The notes under the pieces are model-generated. The model was given only the letters and a program-made list of their open reading frames with translations, was not told the origin of the DNA and searched no databases. Made by a program: the position numbers and the translations under genes. Shown here piece after piece: positions 555 through 63,371 of a stretch of 64,000 nucleotides of DNA. The stretch is from Minisyncoccota bacterium. Its GTDB lineage: Bacteria; Patescibacteriota; Minisyncoccia; Phycocordibacterales; Phycocordibacteraceae. Position 1 is the stretch's first letter. Every line of letters begins with the position of its first letter. Location of the stretch: NCBI GenBank assembly GCA_041666305.1, contig JBAYHD010000002.1, positions 684-64,683 of the forward strand. The letters run 5' to 3'.

Positions 555-3401
555 TTGGGAAAGCATATGGCGTACGACCACAAACACATTGAGAAGAAAT
601 GGCAGGAGAAATGGAAAAAGGACGAACCATATCGCTCAACCGAAGATACCGATAAGAAAAAAGCGTATGTGCTTGATATGTTCCCATACCCGTCAGGGGA
701 GGGGCTTCATGTGGGCCATCCGCGCGGATACATCGCGACCGATATTTATTCTCGCATGAAGCGCATGCAGGGGTACTCGGTGCTCCACCCGATGGGATGG
801 GACGCATTCGGTTTGCCGGCGGAAAATTATGCGCTCAAAAATAAAGTGCATCCGCGCGTTGCCGTGGAGAAGAACATTTCGAATTTCAAACAACAGCTCG
901 CGCACATCGGATTTGATTATGACTGGTCGCGCGAGATAAACACGACCGATCCCGCGTACTACAAATGGACTCAGTGGATATTCCTCAAAATGCTCGAGCA
1001 TAAGCTCGCGTTCCAATCGAACGAGCCCATCAACTGGTGCCCCTCATGCAAGACCGGACTCGCGAATGAAGACCTCGACGGTCCTGTGTGCGAACGCTGC
1101 GGCACTACGGTTGAGAAGAAAAGCTTGCCGCAGTGGGTGCTCAAAATTACCGACTACGCCGATCGCATGCTCGCAGACCTTGATTCGCTCAACTGGCCGG
1201 AGCACATCAAAGAAGCCCAACGGAATTGGATAGGGCGTTCCGAAGGTGCGGAAATTAGCTTTCCGATAGTCGGGAGCGAGGAAACCGTAACCGTATTCAC
1301 GACGCGACCGGACACGCTCTATGGTGCGACGTATCTGGTGCTCGCGCCGGAGCATCGCTTTCTCACCGATAAAAATTATGGGTTTACGAAATCCTTAATT
1401 AATGCAGATGACGTGCGGGCGTACGTCGCGCAGGCGGCAACGAAGACAGAGATAGAACGCGGCGCAGAAGGAAAAGAGAAGACCGGCGTGAAGCTCGAGG
1501 GCGTCAGGGCGCTCAATCCCGCGACGAAAGAAGAAATTCCTATCTACGTTGCCGACTACGTACTCGGTGGGTACGGTACAGGCGCCATCATGGCAGTCCC
1601 CGCGCACGACGAACGCGACTACGAATTTGCAAAGAAATTTAATATTCCGGTCCGGAACGTTGTTGAGCCGGTGCTTGTACAAACGACTGGTTCCGCTGCA
1701 TTCCGGGAGAACGAGCCTGTCCAAGACAGCAACGGCATCATTGCCATCGTGAAGCACTGGGGCGACGAGAAGTATATGGGCTTATATTGGTCGAAGGCAG
1801 AATGGGGCACACTTCTTACCGGCGGCATTGATGAAGGCATGGCGCCTGAAGAAACCGCCTTGAAAGAGATCCGCGAAGAAACCGGCTATACCGACGCGCG
1901 CATCGTTGAATCGTTCGGCACTATTCATAGCAAGTATTACCACGCACCGAAAGAACTCAATCGGTTCGGGCATGCACCGACATTTTATATCGAGCTCAAA
2001 AGCGATGCTCGCGAGGAAGTTTCTCCGGAAGAACTCGCCAAACACGAACTCCATTGGCTCACGAAAGAAGAATTGAAGTCATTTTTGACGGCAACATCAC
2101 ATTTGCAGGCGCTCGCGTTTTTGGATTCGCATGTCTATACCGGCTCCGGATTGCTTGCGAATTCGGGAGATTTTTCAGGCAAGGATAGCGAGCAGGCAAA
2201 ATGGGATATTACGCAAGCCGTGGGAGGGAAGCGCGTGACGCGCTACAAACTCCGCGATTGGGTTTTCTCACGCCAGCGCTATTGGGGCGAGCCGATACCG
2301 GTCATTCATTGTCCGAAAGACGGCGTGGTGCCAGTTCCGTATGAAGATTTGCCGGTCGTATTGCCGGAGGTGGAGTCGTATGAGCCGACCGGCACCGGCG
2401 AATCGCCCCTGGCCACCATCGAATCGTGGGTCAACACGAAGTGTCCGAAATGCGGCGAGCCGGCGAAGCGCGAGACGAACACGATGCCGCAATGGGCGGG
2501 CTCGTCGTGGTATTACCTGCGCTTCATGGACCCGCATGACGCAACCCAGCTTGTGTCCACGAAAAATGAAAAGTATTGGGCGCCGGTCGACGTGTACGTG
2601 GGCGGCGATCACGCCGTGCGCCATCTCATCTATGCGCGCTTCTGGCACAAGTTCCTCTATGATATCGGCGTAGTGAGCACGCAAGAACCGTTCGCGCGGC
2701 TGGAGTTCCTCGGTTTCATCCTTGCAGAAGACGGTCGCAAAATGAGCAAGCGCTACGGCAATGTCATCAATCCGGACGACGTCATCGCGGAATACGGCGC
2801 TGATGCGTTCCGTATCTATGAAATGTTCATGGGGCCATTCGAGAACACAACGAACTGGAGCACTGCTTCCATTGCCGGTACATCGCGTTTCGTGGAGCGA
2901 TTGTGGAATCTGCATGAGACGGTCACGGATGCGCCGGTTCCGGAGCTCGAGCCGCTCCTGCATCGCACCATTCAGAAAATAGGCGCGGACATCGAGTCGT
3001 TCAAATTCAATACCGCCGTGAGCCAAGCGATGATATTCCTGAACAAGATCGAAGAAGTCGGGAACATAGGAAAAGAGCAGTGGCGTTCTTTCATTTGCAT
3101 CCTTGCGCCACTGGCACCCCACTCCACAGAGGAATTGTGGGAGCTCTCCGGAGAAACTTCCTCCATCCACCTCGCTCCGTGGCCTTCATTTGACGAAAAG
3201 ATTATTGCCGCGAGCCATAGCGAGATCGTCGTGCAGGTGAACGGCAAGCGCCGCGGCTCTATTACGCTCCCTGCGGATGCCGTCGAAGAAGCCGCACTGG
3301 CGGCTGCAAAGGCTCTGCCGACCATCATGGCTATGCTCGACGGGAACGAGCCGAAACGGGTGATTTACGTGCCAGGCAGGATCATAAATCTTGTGGTATA
3401 G
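555..3401 (+). CDS. leuS: leucyl-tRNA synthetase carrying an internal Nudix-hydrolase-like insertion
   Basis: HIGH motif (HVGH), KMSKR motif, CP1 editing signatures (TTRPDT, YGTGAIMAVPAHDERD), YKLRDWVFSRQRYWGEPIP; about 130 extra residues (aa ~385-520) with Nudix fold and box GGIDEGMAPEETALKEIREETGY. Confidence 0.9.
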   Translation: MGKHMAYDHKHIEKKWQEKWKKDEPYRSTEDTDKKKAYVLDMFPYPSGEGLHVGHPRGYIATDIYSRMKRMQGYSVLHPMGWDAFGLPAENYALKNKVHPRVAVEKNISNFKQQLAHIGFDYDWSREINTTDPAYYKWTQWIFLKMLEHKLAFQSNEPINWCPSCKTGLANEDLDGPVCERCGTTVEKKSLPQWVLKITDYADRMLADLDSLNWPEHIKEAQRNWIGRSEGAEISFPIVGSEETVTVFTTRPDTLYGATYLVLAPEHRFLTDKNYGFTKSLINADDVRAYVAQAATKTEIERGAEGKEKTGVKLEGVRALNPATKEEIPIYVADYVLGGYGTGAIMAVPAHDERDYEFAKKFNIPVRNVVEPVLVQTTGSAAFRENEPVQDSNGIIAIVKHWGDEKYMGLYWSKAEWGTLLTGGIDEGMAPEETALKEIREETGYTDARIVESFGTIHSKYYHAPKELNRFGHAPTFYIELKSDAREEVSPEELAKHELHWLTKEELKSFLTATSHLQALAFLDSHVYTGSGLLANSGDFSGKDSEQAKWDITQAVGGKRVTRYKLRDWVFSRQRYWGEPIPVIHCPKDGVVPVPYEDLPVVLPEVESYEPTGTGESPLATIESWVNTKCPKCGEPAKRETNTMPQWAGSSWYYLRFMDPHDATQLVSTKNEKYWAPVDVYVGGDHAVRHLIYARFWHKFLYDIGVVSTQEPFARLEFLGFILAEDGRKMSKRYGNVINPDDVIAEYGADAFRIYEMFMGPFENTTNWSTASIAGTSRFVERLWNLHETVTDAPVPELEPLLHRTIQKIGADIESFKFNTAVSQAMIFLNKIEEVGNIGKEQWRSFICILAPLAPHSTEELWELSGETSSIHLAPWPSFDEKIIAASHSEIVVQVNGKRRGSITLPADAVEEAALAAAKALPTIMAMLDGNEPKRVIYVPGRIINLVV

Positions 3402-3421
3402 TCCCACATATCAGGTAGGGG

Positions 3422-8695: not shown

Positions 8696-8716
8696 TTCAG
8701 TAGTGTGCGTCTCCTT

Positions 8717-8759
8717 AGGCCGTCGAAGTCGCGCAAGCGATCAGACGGCCTCTTCTTTT
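8717..8759 (+). terminator. rho-independent terminator after guaA
   Basis: aggccgtc...gacggcct stem then CTTCTTTT. Confidence 0.6.
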
Positions 8760-8796
8760 ATAGTCACGAATCATTAATCATGATTAGATACAGAAC

Positions 8797-12786: not shown

Positions 12787-13451
12787 ATGTAAAAATAGAT
12801 CCGTCATGGGCGAGGCACTTGAAGGGCGAATTTGAAAAGGCTTATTTTGAAGAGCTGACGAGATTCGTGAAGAATGAATACAAAAACGGCGCCGTGTACC
12901 CAGCGCCGAAGAATATTTTTCGTGCATTCGACCTGTGCCCGTTCGAAAAAGTGAAAGTGGTTATCCTCGGACAGGACCCGTACCACGGCGTTCGTCAGGC
13001 GAACGGCCTCGCGTTCGCCGTGGAGAGCACCGAGAAAATTCCACCGTCGCTTCAAAATATTTTTAAAGAAATTGAGAGCGATCTTCACGGGCCGCTTGTG
13101 CATGCAGACGGCGACCTCTCGCGCTGGGCGAAACAGGGCGTGTTGCTCCTCAATGCAACACTCACCGTGCGAGCCGGCATAGCCGGCTCGCACCAGGAGA
13201 AGGGGTGGGAGCAATTTACCGACGCTGTCATCAAAGCGCTTTCGGAGGAACACGAACATCTCGTTTTTATGCTCTGGGGCAATTATGCGAAGGCGAAGGG
13301 CGCACACATCGACCGCAGTAAGCACCTCGTGCTTGAAGCTCCGCATCCCTCGCCATTCTCCGCCGCCTCCGGCTTTTTCGGCTGTAAGCACTTCTCTAAA
13401 GCAAATGACTACCTCGTCGCTCACAACGAAACCCCGATAGACTGGTTGTGA
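12783..13451 (+). CDS. ung: uracil-DNA glycosylase (family 1)
   Basis: [19 protein letters not shown] motifs; full length 222 aa. Confidence 0.85.
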   Translation: MNVKIDPSWARHLKGEFEKAYFEELTRFVKNEYKNGAVYPAPKNIFRAFDLCPFEKVKVVILGQDPYHGVRQANGLAFAVESTEKIPPSLQNIFKEIESDLHGPLVHADGDLSRWAKQGVLLLNATLTVRAGIAGSHQEKGWEQFTDAVIKALSEEHEHLVFMLWGNYAKAKGAHIDRSKHLVLEAPHPSPFSAASGFFGCKHFSKANDYLVAHNETPIDWL

Positions 13452-14029: not shown

Positions 14030-14374
14030 GACGGAGATTTAACACGATGGGCCGAGCAGGGCGTATTGCTCCTCAATGCCACGCTCACCGTGCGAGCCGG
14101 CATAGCCGGCTCGCACCAGGAGAAGGGGTGGGAACAATTCACCGATGCCGTTATCAAGGCACTCTCAGAAGAGCGCGAGCATCTCGTTTTCATGCTCTGG
14201 GGCAATTATGCGAAGGCGAAGGGCGCACACATCGACCGCAGTAAGCACCTCGTGCTTGAAGCTCCGCACCCCTCGCCATTCTCCGCCGCATCCGGCTTTT
14301 TCGGGTGCAAACATTTCAGCCGTGCGAACGAGTATCTTATTTCCCACAACGAAACCCCCATCGACTGGCTCTAG
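14030..14374 (+). pseudogene. orphan duplicate of the ung 3' half (about 115 codons, no proper start)
   Basis: aligns to ung 13107-13451 at roughly 90% nt identity with mostly synonymous differences (e.g. gacctctcgcgc vs gatttaacacga both DL(S/T)R); opens directly after the stop of the 13493 gene in the same frame. Confidence 0.7.
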
Positions 14375-27580: not shown

Positions 27581-27601
27581 CCGTCTCAGTGAAGGTAGTA
27601 T

Positions 27602-27637
27602 GTTCGTTAACTCTAACGGTCGTATCAATTAACGAAC
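27602..27637. repeat. conserved hairpin GTTCGTTAA-N18-TTAACGAAC with AACGGTCGT loop core (copy A)
   Basis: perfect 9-bp stem; near-identical second copy at 35800-35835. Confidence 0.55.
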
Positions 27638-27680
27638 AGCAGATTGCCTACGCTGCGCAAGGTTCGACCTTTCTCAAAAT

Positions 27681-32556: not shown

Positions 32557-32645
32557 CCGGGAGCATCATACGCTAGACGCGGTAGTATGGGAAACCAACA
32601 AACAAGGTAGGGACTTTTTTGACTATGCATCGAATTTCGGGCATA

Positions 32646-32724
32646 CCCCATATGACAACTTTTATATTGATAACGAAATAATTTTTGCTAGCACGGTTGA
32701 TAAAAGTTGTCATACGGGGCATAG
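32646..32724 (+). promoter_or_regulatory. 18-bp inverted repeat (candidate operator) overlapping a TTGATA...CATAGT promoter upstream of grpE
   Basis: CCCCATATGACAACTTTT (32646-32663) vs AAAAGTTGTCATACGGGG (32702-32719), 17/18 complementary, 38-bp spacer; -35 TTGATA 32696-32701, -10 CATAGT 32719-32724. Confidence 0.4.
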
Positions 32725-32731
32725 TGGAGAG

Positions 32732-33283
32732 ATGAAGGAATGGCATGGAGATGATATCGAACCTGAAAATATAATCATCGAGCCCGAAACGGGTGACGAG
32801 ACGGGAGAAGTACGGCCCGAAGAGAAAATCGCAAAGATGCGCGAAGAACTTTCCGCGTGCCGGAAGGACAAACAGGAATACATGGACGGCTGGCAGAGAG
32901 CCAAAGCGGACTACGTGAACGCCCTGAAGCGCTTTGAAACCGACGTCAAGGCATCGGAGTTTAGAGGTAAGGTGAAGGCCGTAGAGACGCTTCTGCCGGC
33001 CTTCGACGCTCTCGAGCGCTCCAAGGAGCACGGGGAATTGCCCGAGGGATTCATGGCCATTGCGAAGCAGCTAGAGGGAGCATTCGCCGCACTTGGACTG
33101 GAGGAGACGGGGAAGGTCGGCGAGAAATTTGACCCCGCGTATCATGAGGCATTGGGCCAGGACAAGGTTGAAACGGCGGACGAAGATGGTATAATTACCG
33201 CCATACTAGAGAAAGGTTGGAGAGTGGGCGACATCATTATTCGACCGGCGAAAGTGCGTGTTGGGCATTTCGCTAGCAATTAG
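32732..33283 (+). CDS. grpE: nucleotide exchange factor GrpE
   Basis: C-terminal GrpE motifs (LLPAFDALERS, KFDPAYHEA, RPAKVRV); GGAGAG RBS before ATG 32732; track ORF 32459 N-terminus overlaps opposite gene. Confidence 0.8.
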   Translation: MKEWHGDDIEPENIIIEPETGDETGEVRPEEKIAKMREELSACRKDKQEYMDGWQRAKADYVNALKRFETDVKASEFRGKVKAVETLLPAFDALERSKEHGELPEGFMAIAKQLEGAFAALGLEETGKVGEKFDPAYHEALGQDKVETADEDGIITAILEKGWRVGDIIIRPAKVRVGHFASN

Positions 33284-33371: not shown

Positions 33372-35282
33372 ATGTCTAAAATACTTGGCATTGATTTGGG
33401 CACTACCTATTCCGCGATGGCAATCGTGGAAGGCGGCGAGCCGCGTGTGCTGGAAAACGCCGAGGGTTCGCGCACAACGCCGTCCATCGTGGCGGTCGGC
33501 AAGAGCGGCGAACGAATTGTGGGTACGCTTGCGAAGCGCCAGTCGGTGACCAATCCCTTGAACACCATTTTCCAGATCAAACGATTCATAGGCCACTCAT
33601 ATGACGAGCCGGCGGTGCAGAAAGACAAGGCGTCCGTGCCATTTGAAATGCGCAAGGCGGAGAACGGCGGCATCGAAGTGAAAATGACGGAGAAGTGGTA
33701 CCGTCCGGAGGAAATTTCCGCGATGATACTCGGCAAACTCAAAGCCGATGCGGAAGCAAAACTCGGCGAGAAGATAACCGAAGCGGTCATCACCGTGCCG
33801 GCATACTTCAACGACGACCAGCGCAGCGCGACAAAAGCTGCAGGTGAAATTGCCGGTCTCACGGTCAAGCGCATCATCAACGAACCGACGGCGGCCGCGC
33901 TCGCGTATGGATTTAATAAAAAGAAAGATGAGAAAATAGCGGTCTTCGACTTCGGCGGCGGCACGTTTGATATCTCCGTGCTTGAAGTGGGCGGGGACGT
34001 CATCGAAGTGAAGAGCACCGACGGCGACGCACACTTGGGCGGCAAGGATATTGACCAGACAATCATCAATTGGCTCGCGGAAGAATTCCGAAAGGAGAGC
34101 GGGATCGATGTGCTCAAAGACGCACTTGCGCGACAGCGGCTGGACGAAGCCGCCGAGAAAGCGAAGATAGAACTCTCCAGCGCGATGGAGACGGAAATAA
34201 ACATCCCATTCCTCACGTCGGACGCTTCCGGCCCGCGCCACCTGCTCATCAAGATGACCCGCGCCAAGCTTGAAGACATCGCGGGAGAATTCATCCAACG
34301 CGCGATGGATATCACCAAGCGCGCGATGGAAGCATCGCCCTTCAAGATTCCCGACATCAACGAAGTCATCCTTGTGGGCGGTCAGACACGCATGCCGGCG
34401 ATACAAGCGGCCGTGGAGAAATTCTTCGGCAAGAAGCCGAATATGACCGTGAATCCGGATGAAGTCGTTGCCATTGGCGCGGCTATCCAGGCGGGCATTC
34501 TGCAGGGCGACGTGAAGGACATTCTGCTTGTGGACGTGATTCCGCTCTCGCTCTCCATCGAGACGATGGGCGGCGTCGCGACTAAACTCGTGGAGCGCAA
34601 TACGGCAATTCCTACGAGCCGTTCGCAAACTTTCTCCACTGCTGCCGATAATCAGCCATCGGTAGAAATTCACGTGACCCAGGGCGAGCGCGCGATGAGC
34701 GCCGACAACAAATCGCTCGGCAAATTTATGCTCGACGGCATTCCACCGGCTCCCCGCGGTATGCCGCAAGTGGAAGTGAAGTTCGACATTGATGCATCCG
34801 GCATCCTCACGGTCACCGCCAAAGAAAAGACCACCGGCAAGGAGCAGTCCATAAAGATCTCCGGCTCCACCGGACTTTCGCAAGCGGACATCGACAAAAT
34901 GAAAGCCGACGCCGAAGCACACACGGCGGACGATGAGAAGCGCAAAGAACTCGTGGAAGCGCGCAATATCGCTGACCAAGCAGTGTATGCGGCGGAGAAA
35001 GCGGTCAAAGATAACGGCGAAAAAGCCGGCGCGGAAGTGGTGAAGGACGTGCAAGACAAGATAGAAGCGTTGAAAGTCGCGCGCAATAGCGAAGACGCTG
35101 GCACTATCAAGAGTGCAACCGAAGCGCTTTCATCCGCACTTATGAAGATCGGCGAGGCGATGATGAAAAATAGTGAGCAGCAAGCAGGAGCAGGAGGCGG
35201 TAATCCGCCGCCGTCAGACGGCGGCGGCCAGGGTCCCGAGACTCCTCCCGCCACCGACGCCGAGTTCAAAGAGAAGCCGTAA
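33372..35282 (+). CDS. dnaK: molecular chaperone DnaK (Hsp70)
   Basis: [16 protein letters not shown], full-length Hsp70. Confidence 0.95.
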
Positions 35283-35397: not shown

Positions 35398-35733
35398 ATG
35401 TCATATCTGCACGCTCTACCAATTTTGTTGGCCTTGGGAGGATTCACTCTCTTGGCCATTGCGCTAAAAAGAGGAAGAGGCATTCTTTGGCCAATCTTCC
35501 TAGTCGGTCTCGTCGTAGGCGGCGAATTCTTGGTGCTTCATGGGAGTGTTGATCGCCTTCAAGGGATAATCGGAGCTGGCAGTCTTTTGGTTTTCCTGCT
35601 CGCCGGCTTGTTCCTATGTTTCGCCTTCCTGTTTTCAGAGGTGATTCAGTCGAAAGAAGCTGGAGGGGTGGCATCACCTTCATCAAGGATTACCGTTTCG
35701 ACGGCGATAATGGGATATATCGCCAGTCTGTGA
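35398..35733 (+). CDS. small hypothetical membrane protein
   Basis: three hydrophobic helices; aaggagatacc RBS. Confidence 0.4.
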   Translation: MSYLHALPILLALGGFTLLAIALKRGRGILWPIFLVGLVVGGEFLVLHGSVDRLQGIIGAGSLLVFLLAGLFLCFAFLFSEVIQSKEAGGVASPSSRITVSTAIMGYIASL

Positions 35734-35750
35734 AGAAAGACATCAATCGC

Positions 35751-35789
35751 GGCGCAGGGATGTAGCATCTCCTGCGCCGTTTTGTTTTG
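35751..35789 (+). terminator. rho-independent terminator
   Basis: ggcgcagg...cctgcgcc then GTTTTGTTTTG. Confidence 0.65.
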
Positions 35790-35799
35790 TCTCGTGCAT

Positions 35800-35835
35800 G
35801 TTCGTTAAGTCCAACGGTCGTGTGACTTAACGAAC
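35800..35835. repeat. conserved hairpin GTTCGTTAAGTC-N12-GACTTAACGAAC with AACGGTCGT loop core (copy B)
   Basis: perfect 12-bp stem; same family as 27602-27637. Confidence 0.55.
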
Positions 35836-35856
35836 ATTATTCATCGTATAACCCAC

Positions 35857-35894
35857 TGTCTCAATTTTTGTCCTATAGGACAAAAATTGAGACA
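35857..35894. promoter_or_regulatory. perfect 17-bp-stem palindrome TGTCTCAATTTTTGTCC-TATA-GGACAAAAATTGAGACA upstream of dnaJ
   Basis: perfect dyad read directly; about 100 nt upstream of the dnaJ promoter. Confidence 0.55.
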
Positions 35895-35994
35895 TCGGCC
35901 TCAGGTGCTATTTCTTTTTGCATACAAAATACAAGAGGTGTATAACCCCGTAGTAGATTTTCGCAATGCGCCGGAGGCGCGGGACGCAGGCCTT

Positions 35995-36021
35995 TTGCGA
36001 AAATTCACTACAGGGTATAAT
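35995..36021 (+). promoter_or_regulatory. dnaJ promoter TTGCGA -15- TATAAT, near-leaderless
   Basis: -10 TATAAT 36016-36021 only 8 nt before ATG 36030; no SD. Confidence 0.4.
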
Positions 36022-36029
36022 CAACACAA

Positions 36030-37139
36030 ATGGCAACAACAAAGGATTATTACAGCGTGCTGGGCGTCGATAAGAAGGCGAGCAAGGACGACATCAAGAA
36101 GGCGTTCCGTAAGCTCGCGCACAAATATCACCCCGACAAGGGCGGCACTGATGAGGCGAAATTCAAGGAGATAACCGAGGCGTACTCGGTGCTCTCCGAT
36201 GACCGTAAGCGCCGTGAATATGATACCTACGGGCAAGCATTTGCGGGCGGGCAACCTGGTTCGGCGCCCCAAGGGGGCCCCTTCGGGGGATTCGACTTCT
36301 CTCAATTCCAACAAGGCTTCCCCCAAGGGGGCCCCTTCGGGGGGCAGGGTGGCGTTGATTTTGATTTTGGTGATATTTTCGGCGACATCTTCGGCGGTCG
36401 CGGGCAACAGCGCACACCGCGCGGCCGCGATATTTCCATCGATTTGGAAGTCTCCTTTAAAGAGGCGGCTCTCGGCACAAGCCGAAGCGTACTCATCGGA
36501 AAGGTCTCCACCTGCTCGCTTTGCCACGGCACGGGAGCGAAGCCGGGCACTGAATTGGAATCCTGCACAACCTGTAACGGAAGCGGCAAAATTCACGAGA
36601 CGCGCAATTCCATACTCGGCCAGTTCAGCTCGGTGCGCGCCTGCACCATTTGTGAAGGCACCGGCAAGGTGCCGAAGGAAAAATGCACGGAGTGCAAAGG
36701 TCACGGCGTTCGCCGCAAGGAGGAAGAACTGAAAATAAATATCCCCGCCGGCGTGGATAACGGTGAAATGATTCGCATGCCGCAAAAGGGCGAGGCAATC
36801 AAAGCTGGCATCGCGGGCGATCTGTACGTGAAGATACACGTGAAGCCGCATGCGATCTTTCGTCGCGACGGAGCGAATTTGATCATGACCCTGCCGGTAA
36901 AATTGACCGATGCACTGCTCGGCACCACTGTTTCAATAGAAAGTTTGGAAGGCAAAACGCTTGAAGTAAAAATCCCGCCGATGAAGCGCGCCGAGGAACT
37001 TCTGCGCGTGGCAGGGAAGGGCATTCCGGCCGAAGGCGGCCGCGGCGACCTCATCATCCGCCTCGAGGCCGCACTTCCGCACAAGCTCTCGAGCAAAGCG
37101 AAGAAGGCTGTTGAAGACTTGAAGAACGAAGGGCTCTAA
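36030..37139 (+). CDS. dnaJ: molecular chaperone DnaJ
   Basis: J domain HPD (KYHPDKG), G/F region, four CxxCxGxG zinc-finger repeats, C-terminal domain. Confidence 0.9.
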
Positions 37140-58305: not shown

Positions 58306-59445
58306 ATGACCATCGCGTTCACAGGAGGAGGCACCGGCGGGCACTTCTATCCCATCATTGCCATCAGCGAGGCGCTCGGCGATCTCGTACGCGAGAAGCA
58401 TCTTATTGAGCCGAAGCTGTATTATCTTGCGCCGAATTCCTTTGATGAAAAGGCGCTCTTTGAGAACGGCATTGCCTACATCCGCATACCGGCAGGGAAG
58501 ATGCGTCGCTATTTTTCGCTGATGAATATCACTGATTCATTTGTCACTTTTTTCGGAACGATATCGGCACTCGTCACGCTCTACCGCCTTTATCCGGACG
58601 TCGTGGTCTCTAAAGGCGGGTACGGCAGCGTGCCGACCGTGCTTGCGGCTCGCATCCTGCGCATCCCCATCATCATTCACGAATCGGATGCAAAACCGGG
58701 CCGCGCAAATCTGCTTGCCGCCAAATTCGCAACGAAGATAGCCATCTCTTTTGAAAGCGCGGCGGCATTTTTCCCGGAGAACGTTCGTGCCAAAATAGCC
58801 CGCACCGGCATTCCAATACGCAAGGCGCTCATGCGCATTGAGCCCGAAGGTGCGCGGCAGTATCTCGGACTCGAAAAAGATACCCCGACGATCCTTATTC
58901 TCGGCGGTTCTCAAGGCGCGGTGAAAATAAACGAGGTTATTTTGTCGTCCCTTCCGGACCTCGTTTCAAGCGCCAATATCATACATCAAACCGGTCAGGC
59001 GAATATCAAGGACGTCGAGTCGATTTCGCAAGTCATTCTTGCGAAATCCAAGAACGCGGACCGATACCATCCGGTCAATTACCTCACCGAAATTTCGCTC
59101 CAGCGGGCCGCCGGCGTCGCAGACCTCATCATCTCGCGCGCTGGCGCGAACAGTATCGCTGAAATAGGCCTCTGGAAAAAACCGGCCATTCTCGTTCCTA
59201 TTCCGGAATCCATCAGTCATGATCAGCGCACGAACGCCTACAGTTACGCGCGCACCGGAGCCGCCATCGTACTCGAAGAAGGAAATCTGACGCCCCATGT
59301 ACTCGTGTCGGAGGTTCGACGCATTCTCGATGATAAGGCGCTTGCAAAACGCATGGGCACATCTGCCGCAGGATTCACCGATCCGGATGCCGCGCGCATT
59401 CTTGCGAACGAAATATTGCAGATATCGCTCGCGCACGAATCATGA
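58306..59445 (+). CDS. murG: UDP-GlcNAc--MurNAc-pentapeptide-undecaprenol GlcNAc transferase
   Basis: GGGTGGHFYP N-terminal G-loop, GT28 C-terminal domain. Confidence 0.85.
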   Translation: MTIAFTGGGTGGHFYPIIAISEALGDLVREKHLIEPKLYYLAPNSFDEKALFENGIAYIRIPAGKMRRYFSLMNITDSFVTFFGTISALVTLYRLYPDVVVSKGGYGSVPTVLAARILRIPIIIHESDAKPGRANLLAAKFATKIAISFESAAAFFPENVRAKIARTGIPIRKALMRIEPEGARQYLGLEKDTPTILILGGSQGAVKINEVILSSLPDLVSSANIIHQTGQANIKDVESISQVILAKSKNADRYHPVNYLTEISLQRAAGVADLIISRAGANSIAEIGLWKKPAILVPIPESISHDQRTNAYSYARTGAAIVLEEGNLTPHVLVSEVRRILDDKALAKRMGTSAAGFTDPDAARILANEILQISLAHES

Positions 59446-60806
59446 GCACCGTCGTTACTCGTTTCGCTCCTTCGCCAACCGGATACTTACACGCCGGCAA
59501 TTACCGCACTGCCGTATTCGCATATCTTTTCGCGAAGCACGAAGGAGGGAAATTCATTGTGCGGATAGAGGACACTGATGTTGCGCGCTCCAAGCCTGAA
59601 TACGTAGCGAACATTCCCGAAATCCTCAAGTGGCTCCGATTACCGGCTGATGAATCATATCGACAAAGTGAGCATCGGCCACGACATCGAGAATTGCTTG
59701 AAAAACTTATCGCTGAAGATACGGCATATGTCTCAAAAGAAACGCCGCAAGCCCCGGGTGATAGGGAAGAGGTCATTCGTTTTAGGAACCCTGGTGGGAC
59801 CGTTACGTTCACTGATATCATTCGCGGCGATATAACGACCGATGTTACCGACCTCGGCGACTTCATCATTGCTCGTTCTCTCGATGAGCCAGTATTTCAC
59901 TTCGCAGTGGTTGTGGATGATGCTGATGAAGGTGTTACGCATGTCATTCGTGGCGGCGACCATATCTCGAACACTGCGCGCCAAATGCTTATTCAGCGTG
60001 CGCTGGGTCTCCCTCTGCCGCTCTATGCACATCTGCCGCTCATCATGGATAGCACTCACAAGAAGCTTTCAAAGCGTGCGGGTGCAAAATCGTTAGCTGA
60101 CTATCGCGATATGGGAATCTTGCCAGAGGCGCTTCTTAACTATCTCGCGTTCCTTGGCTGGAATCCCGGCGATAATCGCGAGTACATGACGCGAGAAGAA
60201 TTGGTTGGAGCGTTTGATCTCTCGCGTGTTCAGAAAGGAAGCGCCATCTTTGATGAAGTGAAATTGTTGTCGGTGAATCAGCACTGGATGCGCGCCCTTC
60301 CTGACGAAAAATTCCTCGCCCATGTGTGGGACTTACGAAGTCCCACATCTGATGTGGGACTTCGTAAGTCCCACAATTCCGAAATAATCACGAAAATCGT
60401 GCCGCTTCTGAAAGAACGCGCGCAGACGTTCGAAGAGGTGCGCGAGATGCTTGCCCGCGAGCTTTCCTTCTTTTTTTCAGACCCAAAAATTGACCTACAG
60501 CAGCTTGTCTTGAAGGAGCCTGCAGACCGTCCGGGAATGACCAAAATGGCTCTAGAAAGCCTGTTTGAGGCCATAAACAGCCTTCCGAAGGGCGTTTCTA
60601 GCGAGGCGGTAAAAGAGGCCCTTATGCCGCTTGCCGATGCCGAGGAGGCAAAAGGGAAGGGAGGCCGTGGAGCCGTGTTATGGCCATTGCGCTACGCCCT
60701 TTCTGGAGAAGAGCGGTCGCCAGACCCATTCACTATCATAAGCATACTTGGAACGAAAGATTCCATTTCTCGACTTCAGGCCGCTCTTGGTATACTTAAA
60801 GGATGA
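59442..60806 (+). CDS. gltX: glutamyl-tRNA synthetase carrying an in-frame 51-bp double palindrome
   Basis: PSPTGYLHAGN, KLSKR motifs; palindromic segment 60325-60375 encodes WDLRSPTSDVGLRKSH. Confidence 0.9.
   Translation: MSTVVTRFAPSPTGYLHAGNYRTAVFAYLFAKHEGGKFIVRIEDTDVARSKPEYVANIPEILKWLRLPADESYRQSEHRPRHRELLEKLIAEDTAYVSKETPQAPGDREEVIRFRNPGGTVTFTDIIRGDITTDVTDLGDFIIARSLDEPVFHFAVVVDDADEGVTHVIRGGDHISNTARQMLIQRALGLPLPLYAHLPLIMDSTHKKLSKRAGAKSLADYRDMGILPEALLNYLAFLGWNPGDNREYMTREELVGAFDLSRVQKGSAIFDEVKLLSVNQHWMRALPDEKFLAHVWDLRSPTSDVGLRKSHNSEIITKIVPLLKERAQTFEEVREMLARELSFFFSDPKIDLQQLVLKEPADRPGMTKMALESLFEAINSLPKGVSSEAVKEALMPLADAEEAKGKGGRGAVLWPLRYALSGEERSPDPFTIISILGTKDSISRLQAALGILKG
60325..60375. repeat. 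in-frame double palindrome: two 23-bp perfect palindromes TGTGGGACTT(ACG/CGT)AAGTCCCACA separated by 5 nt
   Basis: each unit 9-bp stem + 3-nt centre; whole 51-bp segment nearly self-complementary so both strands encode similar peptides (track ORF 60278 minus). Confidence 0.6.
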
Positions 60807-62904: not shown

Positions 62905-63371
62905 GTTATATAAGTGCTCAAAAGGAGATTGTGCGGGATGTTCAATGCGCAAAATACGATTGTGCAAACGCCCGTATACTCGGGCATTCGCACAATCGCT
63001 GGGATCTTTTGCGCACTTGCTGAGCGGCTTTGCCGCCTACGCAAGTGCGCAAAAGATATATTGTGCGCACTCTATACAGAGCATCCCCCATCGCTTCCCT
63101 GCAGCTAAAGAAACAAAAAACACATCAATGTATTATTACGATGCGTTCCCTGCTTCCATCGCCGACAATTATTATTTTTTTAGCGCGATGATGATGACCT
63201 GGCACAGACTAATAAGCGTACTCATAAAACCGGTCCAAAATGCGTAGATCTGGAGCTTGCCCATAAAATTCTGTTTTCGACTCATAGAGGAAAGCGTACC
63301 ACGCTTCCCTTTCGTCTTAAACAAGGAGGTGTTCAAAAGTTGTCTCTGGCTATAATCAAGTCCCATAAGAA

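What the first reader, a model, noticed from the sequence alone, without database searches (positions are those of the whole stretch)
35857..35894. Perfect 38-bp palindrome (17-bp stem, TATA loop) upstream of dnaJ
TGTCTCAATTTTTGTCC-TATA-GGACAAAAATTGAGACA is a flawless dyad. It lies about 100 bp upstream of the dnaJ promoter and just downstream of a terminator and the copy-B hairpin. It matches neither CIRCE (TTAGCACTC-N9-GAGTGCTAA) nor HAIR (CTTGAGT-N7-ACTCAAG). It could be the operator of an unidentified heat-shock/chaperone regulator in a genome where I see no hrcA or hspR in this window. Alternatively it could be a DNA cruciform or RNA processing site separating dnaJ from dnaK.
Basis: seen in the sequence. 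Interest (0 to 1): 0.55.

Follow-up and report, generated by a model that had tools for sequence, protein, structure and literature searches.

The report
Binding-site palindrome of a PaaX-like regulator
The perfect 38-bp palindrome upstream of dnaJ is real, but it is not a heat-shock operator: it is one copy of a rare, clade-specific DNA motif that always brackets the gene of an uncharacterised PaaX-like DNA-binding protein in Kaiserbacteria-type CPR bacteria, and it is most likely that protein's binding site.

Summary
The palindrome is exactly as described: window 35857-35894, 19+19 bp, no spacer, far beyond chance. The organism is a Parcubacteria/Kaiserbacteria-like CPR bacterium.

The dyad is absent from the dnaK-dnaJ spacer of four relatives. 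There it sits in a roughly 130-bp window-specific block between a terminator and the conserved dnaJ promoter.

The same dyad recurs at about 35 non-orthologous places in related metagenomes and MAGs. The half-site consensus is TAGGA-YRRAAW-TTGAKACA, with about 1-3 strict matches per genome.

In all 11 distinct loci that carry it (12 ids, two being one contig), a 195-aa gene is bracketed by two copies. This protein has a winged helix plus a Cas2-like fold, matches Pfam PaaX_M, and its best structural match is E. coli PaaX. The upstream copy overlaps the gene's -10 box. A 37%-identical paralogue is bracketed by dyads of the same geometry with different outer arms.

The two arms vary independently, which fits a duplex protein site and not an RNA or DNA hairpin. 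The E. coli PaaX operator spans 39 bp.

Best reading: this is the cognate site of that regulator, inserted here in one lineage only. Links to chaperone genes are sporadic (one other copy lies upstream of grpE). Two features remain unexplained: the copies lie after gene ends (none in divergent spacers), and they differ in presence between relatives.

The parts
35857..35894 (.). Type-1 38-bp dyad. Two 19-bp half-sites, each TAGGA (inner box) + 6 variable bases + TTGAGACA (outer box); centre TCCTA|TAGGA.
   Evidence: Same motif at about 35 other places. Position frequencies.
35782..35910 (.). Window-specific block of about 130 bp, absent from relatives. It lies between the T-run of the upstream terminator and the dnaJ -35 box and carries hairpin B and the dyad.
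   Evidence: Alignment with L002-L005; sequences.
35798..35837 (+). Hairpin B: a 40-bp dyad of a second class, with variable arms and a constant centre ACGGTCGT. It lies 19 bp from the type-1 dyad.
   Evidence: copy at 27600-27638. The same class lies 40-75 bp from type-1 dyads in L013, L022, L031 and L034. Dyads with a CGACCG centre flank family-2 PaaX-like genes in L046 and L047.
35750..35790 (+). Intrinsic terminator of the small ORF (GC-rich stem followed by TTTTGTTTTG).
   Evidence: It aligns with the terminators that precede the dnaJ promoter in relatives.
35398..35733 (+). 111-aa predicted membrane ORF inserted between dnaK and dnaJ. No Pfam match. This position is variable among relatives: no ORF in L002 and L003, unrelated ORFs of 152 and 170 aa in L004 and L005.
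35918..35946 (+). dnaJ promoter conserved with relatives: -35 TTGCAT (35918-35923), 17-nt spacer, -10 TATAAC (35941-35946).
   Evidence: Inferred from sequence; not reported by the consensus scan.
35945..36016 (+). 72-bp hairpin element that splits the ancestral -10 box of dnaJ. GTATAA is duplicated at 35940-35945 and 36015-36020.
36030..37139 (+). dnaJ (369 aa).
   Evidence: Pfam DnaJ, DnaJ_CXXCXGXG, DnaJ_C; homologues.

Best explanation
The palindrome is a duplex-DNA binding site for a symmetric oligomer of a clade-specific PaaX-like protein. That protein has an N-terminal winged helix and a Cas2-like fold, and lacks PaaX's C-terminal ligand domain. It is encoded elsewhere in the genome, outside this window.

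Inferred mode of binding: each 19-bp half-site has an outer box (TTGAKACA) and an inner box (TAGGA). The outer box differs between paralogue families and is probably read by the winged helix. The inner box is shared between families.

At the protein's own gene, one copy covers the -10 box and the leaderless transcription start, so it would act as an autorepressing operator. A second copy sits about 25 bp after the stop codon.

A few further copies per genome lie in terminator-proximal spacers.

The window's copy arrived in this lineage as part of a roughly 130-bp insertion between the terminator of a small inserted ORF and the dnaJ promoter. It lies outside the core promoter (centre about -78). 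It is therefore not a conserved chaperone operator, and any effect on dnaJ would be lineage-specific and modulatory.

What is shown: the motif family, the bracketing of the gene, the paralogue-specific arms, the lack of arm covariation, the fold, and the presence/absence differences between relatives.
What is inferred: that the protein binds the dyad, that it autorepresses, and any effect on dnaJ.
For: 1. Motif family. Scanning for the 19-mer half gave 15 true 38-bp dyads in JGI/ENA metagenomes with unrelated flanks. A degenerate pattern gave 18 stretches in 185,579 species genomes, all in 12 MAGs that either carry Kaiserbacteria/Paceibacterota names or share this gene context (four are deposited as 'uncultured Candidatus Saccharibacteria'), with 1-3 stretches per genome.

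2. Bracketing. The 195-aa gene is flanked by two dyads in every locus that holds it: 12 locus ids, of which L014 and L037 are one contig, so 11 distinct loci (L006, L010, L014=L037, L023, L025, L039, L040, L041, L043, L044, L045). In every case the gene-proximal arm of the upstream copy carries a TATAAT/CATAAT -10 box (consensus TAGGATATAATTTGAKACA), with the ATG 7-10 nt later.

3. Paralogue specificity. A 37%-identical paralogue next to rpoD is flanked by 36-38-bp dyads of the same geometry. These share the inner core but have different outer arms (ATCCNCA...). This holds on both sides in L037, L040 and L044, and on one side in L045-L047.

4. Protein. Pfam PaaX_M scores 65.9 bits against a cut-off of 24. 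TIGR02277 PaaX gives a local match over the recognition helix, wing and Cas2-like domain. The AlphaFold model has pLDDT 72.8 (above 80 for residues 60-195). Its best PDB match is E. coli PaaX 8a39 (probability 1.0, E 7.6e-4), followed by Cas2 proteins and Rv0674.

5. Geometry. The E. coli PaaX operator is TGATTC-N27-GAATCA, 39 bp, and PaaX represses its own promoter (PMC9493321).

6. No hairpin selection. Arms within a dyad differ as much as arms drawn from different dyads (2.69 against 2.28 expected).

7. Not conserved at dnaJ.
Against: - No PaaX-like gene lies in the 64-kb window, and I could not show that the source genome has one.
- Binding itself is untested.
- Apart from the regulator's own promoter, the copies do not overlap core promoters.
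- Of the non-TF copies I could classify, about 12 lie between tandem genes, 5-8 between convergent genes and none between divergent genes. The background from called genes is 71% tandem, 15% convergent, 13.5% divergent. This is odd for a transcription-factor regulon. My ORF calls are crude and the excess is only marginally significant.
- Copies differ in presence at orthologous sites between related genera. They also cluster with other dyad types. Both features look more like a dispersed repeat than a conserved regulon.
Confidence: 0.62

Rival explanations
1. REP/BIME-like dispersed palindrome. The dyads would be short mobile or copy-pasted intergenic elements. The bracketed winged-helix/Cas2-fold gene would be their dedicated maintenance or mobilising protein, analogous to a RAYT flanked by REPs. 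The window's copy would be a neutral or selfish insertion.
For: - The gene is always bracketed by two copies.
- Copies lie after gene ends and between convergent genes, none in divergent spacers.
- Filled and empty orthologous sites exist: the dnaK-dnaJ spacer, mnmA upstream where a clean insertion of about 63 bp follows the same CTTCTTT run, and grpE upstream.
- Copies form mosaic clusters with other palindromic units.
- The Cas2 signature FDI...RLQDSVW is invariant in both paralogue families.
Against: - Copy number is very low: one in 64 kb here, and 1-3 strict matches per genome.
- The arms show no hairpin covariation, whereas RAYTs act on folded single-stranded REPs.
- The flanked protein is not an HUH transposase, and its closest solved relative is a repressor.
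- At least one non-TF copy is kept at the same place in two different species (L027 and L030).
- No target-site duplication could be defined.
Confidence: 0.2
2. Operator of a dedicated heat-shock/chaperone regulator. The dyad would control dnaJ, and in other genomes grpE-dnaK, in response to stress.
For: Two copies sit just upstream of chaperone promoters: this one (23 bp before the dnaJ -35 box) and L029 (7 bp before the grpE -35 box, with dnaK downstream). Roughly 0.1 such neighbours would be expected by chance among 24 copies.
Against: - Absent upstream of dnaJ and grpE in L002-L005, and absent upstream of grpE in the window.
- All other copies are next to unrelated genes.
- The only invariant partner is the PaaX-like gene.
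- No CIRCE or HAIR match.
Confidence: 0.06
3. RNA-level element: a terminator, processing site or stabilising hairpin, or a DNA cruciform, with no dedicated protein.
For: - Strong predicted hairpin, one of four consecutive hairpins in the spacer.
- Copies lie near the 3' ends of genes.
Against: - No U-tract follows the stem, and canonical terminators already stand next to most copies.
- Arms are not compensatory. Upstream copies at the regulator gene pair at only 13-15 of 19 positions yet are conserved.
- A 38-bp sequence conserved across genera is not expected of a terminator.
- No Rfam match.
Confidence: 0.05
4. Architectural or roadblock site. The protein-bound dyads would act as boundary elements, insulating neighbouring transcription units or pausing replication forks. 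The comparison is with Ter sites, one of which overlaps the promoter of tus or rtp.
For: - Placement between terminators and promoters or between convergent genes, never in divergent spacers.
- Low copy number.
- A copy overlaps the protein's own promoter.
The Tus/RTP analogy comes from my own knowledge and was not tested.
Against: - There is no positional information along a chromosome, because all sources are fragmented MAGs.
- Perfectly symmetric sites give no polarity.
- Intrinsic terminators are already present beside the copies.
Confidence: 0.07

Closest known systems
PaaX repressor and its operator (E. coli/Pseudomonas phenylacetate catabolon)
   Same: - Winged helix followed by a Cas2-like domain (Pfam PF20803; Foldseek best match 8a39).
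- A long dyad operator: TGATTC-N27-GAATCA is 39 bp, against 38 bp here.
- The operator overlaps the regulator's own promoter, giving autorepression (PMC9493321).
   Different: - The protein is 195 aa, not about 316, and lacks the C-terminal phenylacetyl-CoA-binding helical domain.
- It scores 43 bits against the TIGR02277 cut-off of 264.
- No paa genes are present.
- The half-site has two boxes with a conserved centre, TCCTA|TAGGA.
- A second copy sits after the stop codon.
- Other copies lie at gene 3' ends.
REP/BIME elements with RAYT genes
   Same: - Imperfect palindromes of about 35-40 bp in spacers after gene ends.
- Mosaic clusters of different palindromic units.
- A single-copy, vertically inherited gene flanked by two copies.
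- Presence/absence differences between relatives.
   Different: - The flanked gene is not an HUH (Y1) transposase.
- Copy number is one to two orders of magnitude lower.
- There is no evidence of hairpin selection.
CIRCE/HrcA and HAIR/HspR heat-shock operators
   Same: An inverted repeat near chaperone genes in this window, and in one other genome (L029).
   Different: - Different sequence and spacing.
- Not conserved at chaperone promoters.
- It lies upstream of the -35 box instead of over the promoter.
- Its associated gene is PaaX-like.
Cas2 (CRISPR adaptation protein)
   Same: The C-terminal domain has the Cas2 fold and the signature FDI...QDSVW. NCBI's PGAP pipeline names the protein 'CRISPR-associated endonuclease Cas2'.
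   Different: - An N-terminal winged helix is fused to it.
- No cas1 gene or CRISPR array is present in any locus (gene lists).
- The gene sits at a fixed place between rpoC and dnaG.

Membership tests
PaaX-family regulator/operator | N-terminal winged helix plus central Cas2-like (PaaX_M) domain | tested here: met
   PF20803 at 65.9 bits (cut-off 24). Foldseek best PDB match is 8a39 PaaX, probability 1.0. MarR/AspA-type winged-helix matches.
PaaX-family regulator/operator | Full-length equivalog with the C-terminal ligand-binding helical domain (TIGR02277 cut-off) | tested here: not met
   43.2 bits against a cut-off of 264.55. Only profile positions 37-132 of 279 are matched. The protein is 195 aa.
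PaaX-family regulator/operator | Operator made of two inverted boxes about 27 bp apart (39-bp span) that overlaps the regulator's own promoter | tested here: met
   38-bp dyad with outer boxes TGTMTCAA/TTGAKACA. The upstream copy covers the -10 box and the start in all 11 distinct loci. The E. coli geometry is taken from PMC9493321. The box sequence is different.
PaaX-family regulator/operator | The protein actually binds the dyad | not testable with these tools
   Needs EMSA, footprinting or DAP-seq.
CIRCE/HrcA | TTAGCACTC-N9-GAGTGCTAA over the promoters of dnaK/groE operons, conserved among relatives | tested here: not met
   The sequence differs. It is absent from relatives' dnaJ and grpE upstream regions.
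HAIR/HspR | CTTGAGT-N7-ACTCAAG upstream of dnaK/clpB | tested here: not met
   The sequence and spacing differ.
REP/BIME + RAYT | Tens to hundreds of copies per genome | tested here: not met
   One copy in 64 kb. 1-3 strict matches per species genome. No further non-TF copies in about 110 kb of loci fetched independently of the motif.
REP/BIME + RAYT | The flanked gene encodes an HUH (Y1) transposase | tested here: not met
   The flanked gene is PaaX_M/Cas2-like.
REP/BIME + RAYT | Palindromes in spacers after gene ends, in mosaic clusters, varying between relatives | tested here: met
Intrinsic terminator | GC-rich stem followed by a U-tract | tested here: not met
   The stem is AT-rich and is followed by TCGGCCTC. 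The scan lists only a 6-pair partial hairpin. Separate canonical terminators lie adjacent.
Known RNA families (Rfam 15) | Match at the gathering score | tested here: not met
   Only two tRNAs in the window. Only sub-threshold miRNA-like hairpin matches over the dyad.

The most novel reading that the evidence does not exclude
The 38-bp dyads, together with the CGGTCG-centred and GCTATAGC-centred dyads that cluster with them, would be a new kind of dispersed palindromic element system in CPR bacteria. Its dedicated proteins would be winged-helix/Cas2-fold paralogues, each bracketed by its own dyad type. This would be a functional analogue of REP/RAYT built on a Cas2-like domain instead of an HUH transposase. 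The elements would spread by insertion into terminator-promoter spacers and rewire neighbouring promoters, here dnaJ.
Probability: 0.2. Interest if true: 0.8.

Novelty: new variant of a known kind. Interest (0 to 1): 0.55.

Why it matters
CPR/Patescibacteria have very few recognisable regulators and almost no experimentally defined cis-elements. This analysis links a protein family that annotation pipelines label 'Cas2' (or PaaX/MarR) to an exact 38-bp DNA motif. Paralogue-specific variants of the motif add to the link.

The result is a directly testable protein-DNA pair: a synthesised gene and a 38-mer oligonucleotide would be enough for a first experiment. It also corrects a systematic mis-annotation, since these are not CRISPR components.

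The odd genomic behaviour of the sites (after gene ends, clustered, gained and lost between genera) raises a further question. They may be regulatory, architectural or selfish. If the Cas2-fold domain takes part in moving them, that would be a new link between Cas2-like proteins and repeat dynamics.

For the window itself, the result removes the idea of a new heat-shock regulon.

Tried and rejected
- Rfam at gathering and permissive thresholds found nothing relevant.
- The consensus promoter scan found a minus-strand promoter that uses the dyad's TTGAGA as its -35 box. I checked whether the outward-facing TTGAKA boxes are generally followed by a -10 box at 16-18 nt in the 77 flanks. They are not, so the 'dyad as divergent promoter' idea was dropped.
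- Hairpin covariation test: negative.
- tblastn and HMM searches for the PaaX-like gene in the window found none.
- The cluster-member look-up, meant to find a copy of the gene from the window's own sample, returned no accessions.
- The first AlphaFold run used a shallow alignment and gave pLDDT 45.6, which is unusable. It was repeated with both paralogue families.
- The viral-contig scan gave two single-arm chance matches and no dyad.
- Literature searches for PaaX/Cas2-like proteins in Patescibacteria, or for Parcubacteria palindromes, found nothing on this system.
- I looked for target-site duplications at the dyad insertions. Only ambiguous T-run or TATA matches appeared.
- I considered the CtsR box (GGTCAAA direct repeats; from my own knowledge). 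I rejected it because the repeats here are inverted and the associated gene is different.

Full report
**Observation.** The sequence TGTCTCAATTTTTGTCCTATAGGACAAAAATTGAGACA lies at window 35857-35894. It is a complete 38-bp palindrome, 19+19 bp with no spacer. It has no second copy in the window even at 3 mismatches. It is the longest gap-free perfect dyad in the window; the 51-bp palindrome at 60325-60375 has longer arms around a single central base. Of 20 shuffles of the window, 19 had no 38-bp dyad with at least 15/19 pairs and one had a single such dyad. An independently assembled JGI contig carries the identical region.

**Context.** The gene order is:
- grpE (about 32733-33283);
- dnaK (33372-35282);
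- a 111-aa membrane ORF with no Pfam match (35398-35733);
- a 296-bp spacer;
- dnaJ (36030-37139), then tyrS.

DnaJ homologues place the organism in Parcubacteria/Paceibacterota, near Kaiserbacteria.

As RNA, the spacer folds into four consecutive hairpins: the terminator of the small ORF, 'hairpin B', the palindrome, and a 72-nt hairpin.

**Not conserved at dnaJ.** I fetched the dnaJ loci of four relatives with 84-92% DnaJ identity. In all four the sequence before dnaJ is only 87-122 bp. It consists of a terminator, then TTTTGCATACAAAA (-35), GTATAAT (-10), about 10 nt, and the ATG.

The alignment shows two blocks found only in the window:
- about 130 bp (35782-35910) between the terminator T-run and the -35 box, holding hairpin B and the palindrome;
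- about 74 bp that splits the -10 box.

So the palindrome stands 23 bp upstream of the conserved -35 box (TTGCAT, 35918-35923), with its centre near -78. It is a lineage-specific addition.

**The motif recurs elsewhere.** An exact scan of JGI/ENA metagenome contigs with one 19-bp half returned 19 stretches. Fifteen are full 38-bp dyads with unrelated flanks, and four are single-arm chance matches.

A degenerate pattern scanned over one genome for each of 185,579 species returned only 18 stretches. All lie in 12 MAGs that belong, by name or by shared gene context, to the Kaiserbacteria/Paceibacterota lineage (four are deposited as 'uncultured Candidatus Saccharibacteria'), with 1-3 stretches per genome. 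One of them is the closest relative's genome (L038).

The half-site consensus is T-A-G-G-A-[C/T]-[A/G]-[A/G]-A-A-[A/T]-T-T-G-A-[G/T]-A-C-A. Positions 1-5, 9-10, 12-15 and 17-19 are nearly invariant.

**The invariant partner.** A position-matrix scan showed that a gene of about 195 aa is flanked on both sides by the dyad in every locus that contains it. That is 12 locus ids, of which L014 and L037 are the same contig, so 11 distinct loci.
- The gene lies between rpoC and dnaG.
- The gene-proximal arm of the upstream copy always carries a TATAAT/CATAAT -10 box (consensus TAGGATATAATTTGAKACA), and the ATG begins 7-10 nt later. This is the same leaderless layout as other promoters in these genomes.
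- The downstream copy begins about 25 bp after the stop codon.

**The protein.**
- It matches Pfam PaaX_M, the Cas2-like central domain of PaaX, at 65.9 bits against a cut-off of 24.
- It matches the PaaX equivalog TIGR02277 only locally: 43 bits against a cut-off of 264.
- NCBI's PGAP pipeline names it 'CRISPR-associated endonuclease Cas2', and JGI names it 'PaaX' or 'MarR'.
- An AlphaFold model built from both paralogue families has pLDDT 72.8 and pTM 0.70, and is confident from residue 51 onward.
- Its best PDB match is E. coli PaaX (8a39, probability 1.0), followed by many Cas2 structures and Rv0674.
- It is therefore a winged helix fused to a Cas2 fold, without PaaX's C-terminal ligand domain.

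**Paralogue-specific sites.** A 37%-identical paralogue lies beside rpoD and a PD-(D/E)XK gene. It is flanked by dyads of the same length and layout, with the same inner core but different outer arms.
- Example: TATCCACAGACATTGTCCTA|TAGGACGAAGTCGTGGATA.
- Such dyads are on both sides in L037, L040 and L044.
- In more distant genomes the arms are TATCCACA and the centre is CGACCG (L046, L047).

Different proteins paired with different arms in one geometry is the signature of cognate protein-site pairs.

**Duplex site, not hairpin.** Across 30 dyads (the genome-scan loci, L043/L044 and three TF-downstream copies), the two arms of one dyad differ from each other as much as arms taken from different dyads. 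For non-TF copies the figures are 2.69 differences observed against 2.28 expected. Copies upstream of the regulator gene differ more, at 4.29. So there are no compensatory changes.

From the position frequencies, roughly 6% of copies would be expected to be perfect palindromes by chance (my own estimate). The window's copy is one of these.

The E. coli PaaX operator is TGATTC-N27-GAATCA, 39 bp, and PaaX represses its own promoter (PMC9493321). That is the same span as found here.

**What does not fit a simple regulon.**
- Outside the regulator's own gene, the copies lie 17-125 bp after a stop codon, usually just beyond a canonical terminator.
- In my crude ORF calls, about 12 are between tandem genes, 5-8 between convergent genes, and none between divergent genes. 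The background from called genes is 74 tandem, 16 convergent and 14 divergent spacers.
- Neighbouring genes share no theme.
- Presence differs at orthologous sites:
  - dnaK-dnaJ spacer: present in the window, absent in four relatives;
  - mnmA upstream: present in L035 and L018, where a clean block of about 63 bp follows the same CTTCTTT run, and absent in the window at 8696-8796;
  - grpE upstream: present in L029, 7 bp before the same TTGACT-17-CATACT promoter that the window has without a dyad.
- Copies cluster with other dyad classes. CGGTCG-centred dyads such as hairpin B lie 40-75 bp away in six cases. GCTATAGC-centred dyads lie 8-18 bp away in L021 and L036.
- At least one copy is kept at the same place in two species (L027 and L030).

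**Verdict.** The heat-shock-operator reading is not supported, apart from one sporadic second case upstream of grpE.

The best-supported explanation is that the palindrome is the cognate duplex binding site of a PaaX-like winged-helix/Cas2-fold protein. That protein appears to autoregulate through a copy over its own promoter. The window's copy is a lineage-specific insertion upstream of the dnaJ promoter with at most a modulatory role. Confidence is about 0.6.

The REP/BIME-like reading remains open at about 0.2 and would be the more novel outcome. In that reading the dyads are dispersed palindromes with a dedicated Cas2-fold protein.

Binding, the presence of the gene in the source genome, and any effect on dnaJ remain untested.

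Noticed in passing
window 60325-60375: A perfect 51-bp palindrome made of two nested hairpins (TGTGGGACTT-ACG-AAGTCCCACA and its mirror). It lies inside the gltX-like ORF 59442-60806 (Pfam tRNA-synt_1c + Anticodon_2). It is in frame, 17 codons long, and sits in the linker between the catalytic and anticodon-binding domains. It resembles the in-frame palindromic insertions of Rickettsia (RPEs).
   Followed up: partly
window 35945-36016 and 32643-32722: Two different hairpin elements with CCCC...GGGG termini sit exactly at the -10 boxes of dnaJ and grpE. Each has the flanking bases duplicated (GTATAA for dnaJ, GCATA for grpE). Relatives have uninterrupted promoters (L002-L005 for dnaJ, L029 for grpE). 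Both chaperone mRNAs would gain a 70-80-nt 5' hairpin.
   Followed up: partly
window 35798-35837 and 27600-27638; L013 377-414; L022 5811-5850 and 13214-13256; L031 6332-6373; L034 2681-2720 and 2769-2802: Hairpin B belongs to a class of 38-40-bp dyads with variable, compensating arms and a constant asymmetric centre (A)CGGTCG(T). Six of about ten strong examples lie within 75 bp of a type-1 dyad.
   Followed up: partly
L037 2257-2292 and 2920-2943; L040 4704-4742 and 5355-5392; L044 about 2715-2752 and 3363-3402; L046 9931-9969; L047 10604-10642: The family-2 PaaX-like paralogue, next to rpoD and a PD-(D/E)XK gene, is bracketed by its own dyads. Their outer arm TATCCACA equals the DnaA-box core (TTATCCACA). 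The centre is CCTATAGG in Kaiserbacteria and CGACCG in more distant Paceibacteria.
   Followed up: partly
L021 about 526-563; L036 969-1007: Further 38-bp dyad types with a GCTATAGC centre (arms TATCCATAA... and TGTACCTT...) stand 8-18 bp from type-1 dyads. This suggests several related site types per genome.
   Followed up: no
proteins P0138, P0160, P0166-P0168, P0242 and others: NCBI annotation names these winged-helix/Cas2-fold proteins 'CRISPR-associated endonuclease Cas2', because TIGR01573 is just exceeded (30 bits against a cut-off of 24.5) over about 36 residues. No cas1 gene or CRISPR array is near them. This is probably a systematic mis-annotation in Patescibacteria.
   Followed up: partly
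window 13160-13198 and 14083-14121: The same GC-rich 39-bp dyad, CTCACCGTGCGAGCCGGCAtAGCCGGCTCGCACCAGGAG, occurs twice, 923 bp apart.
   Followed up: no
window 62957-63057: Two adjacent long hairpins lie upstream of ORF 62945-63247: CGATTGTGCAAACGCCCG/CGGGCATTCGCACAATCG, and ATCTTTTGCGCACTTGC-N20-GCAAGTGCGCAAAAGAT. Their nature is unknown.
   Followed up: no
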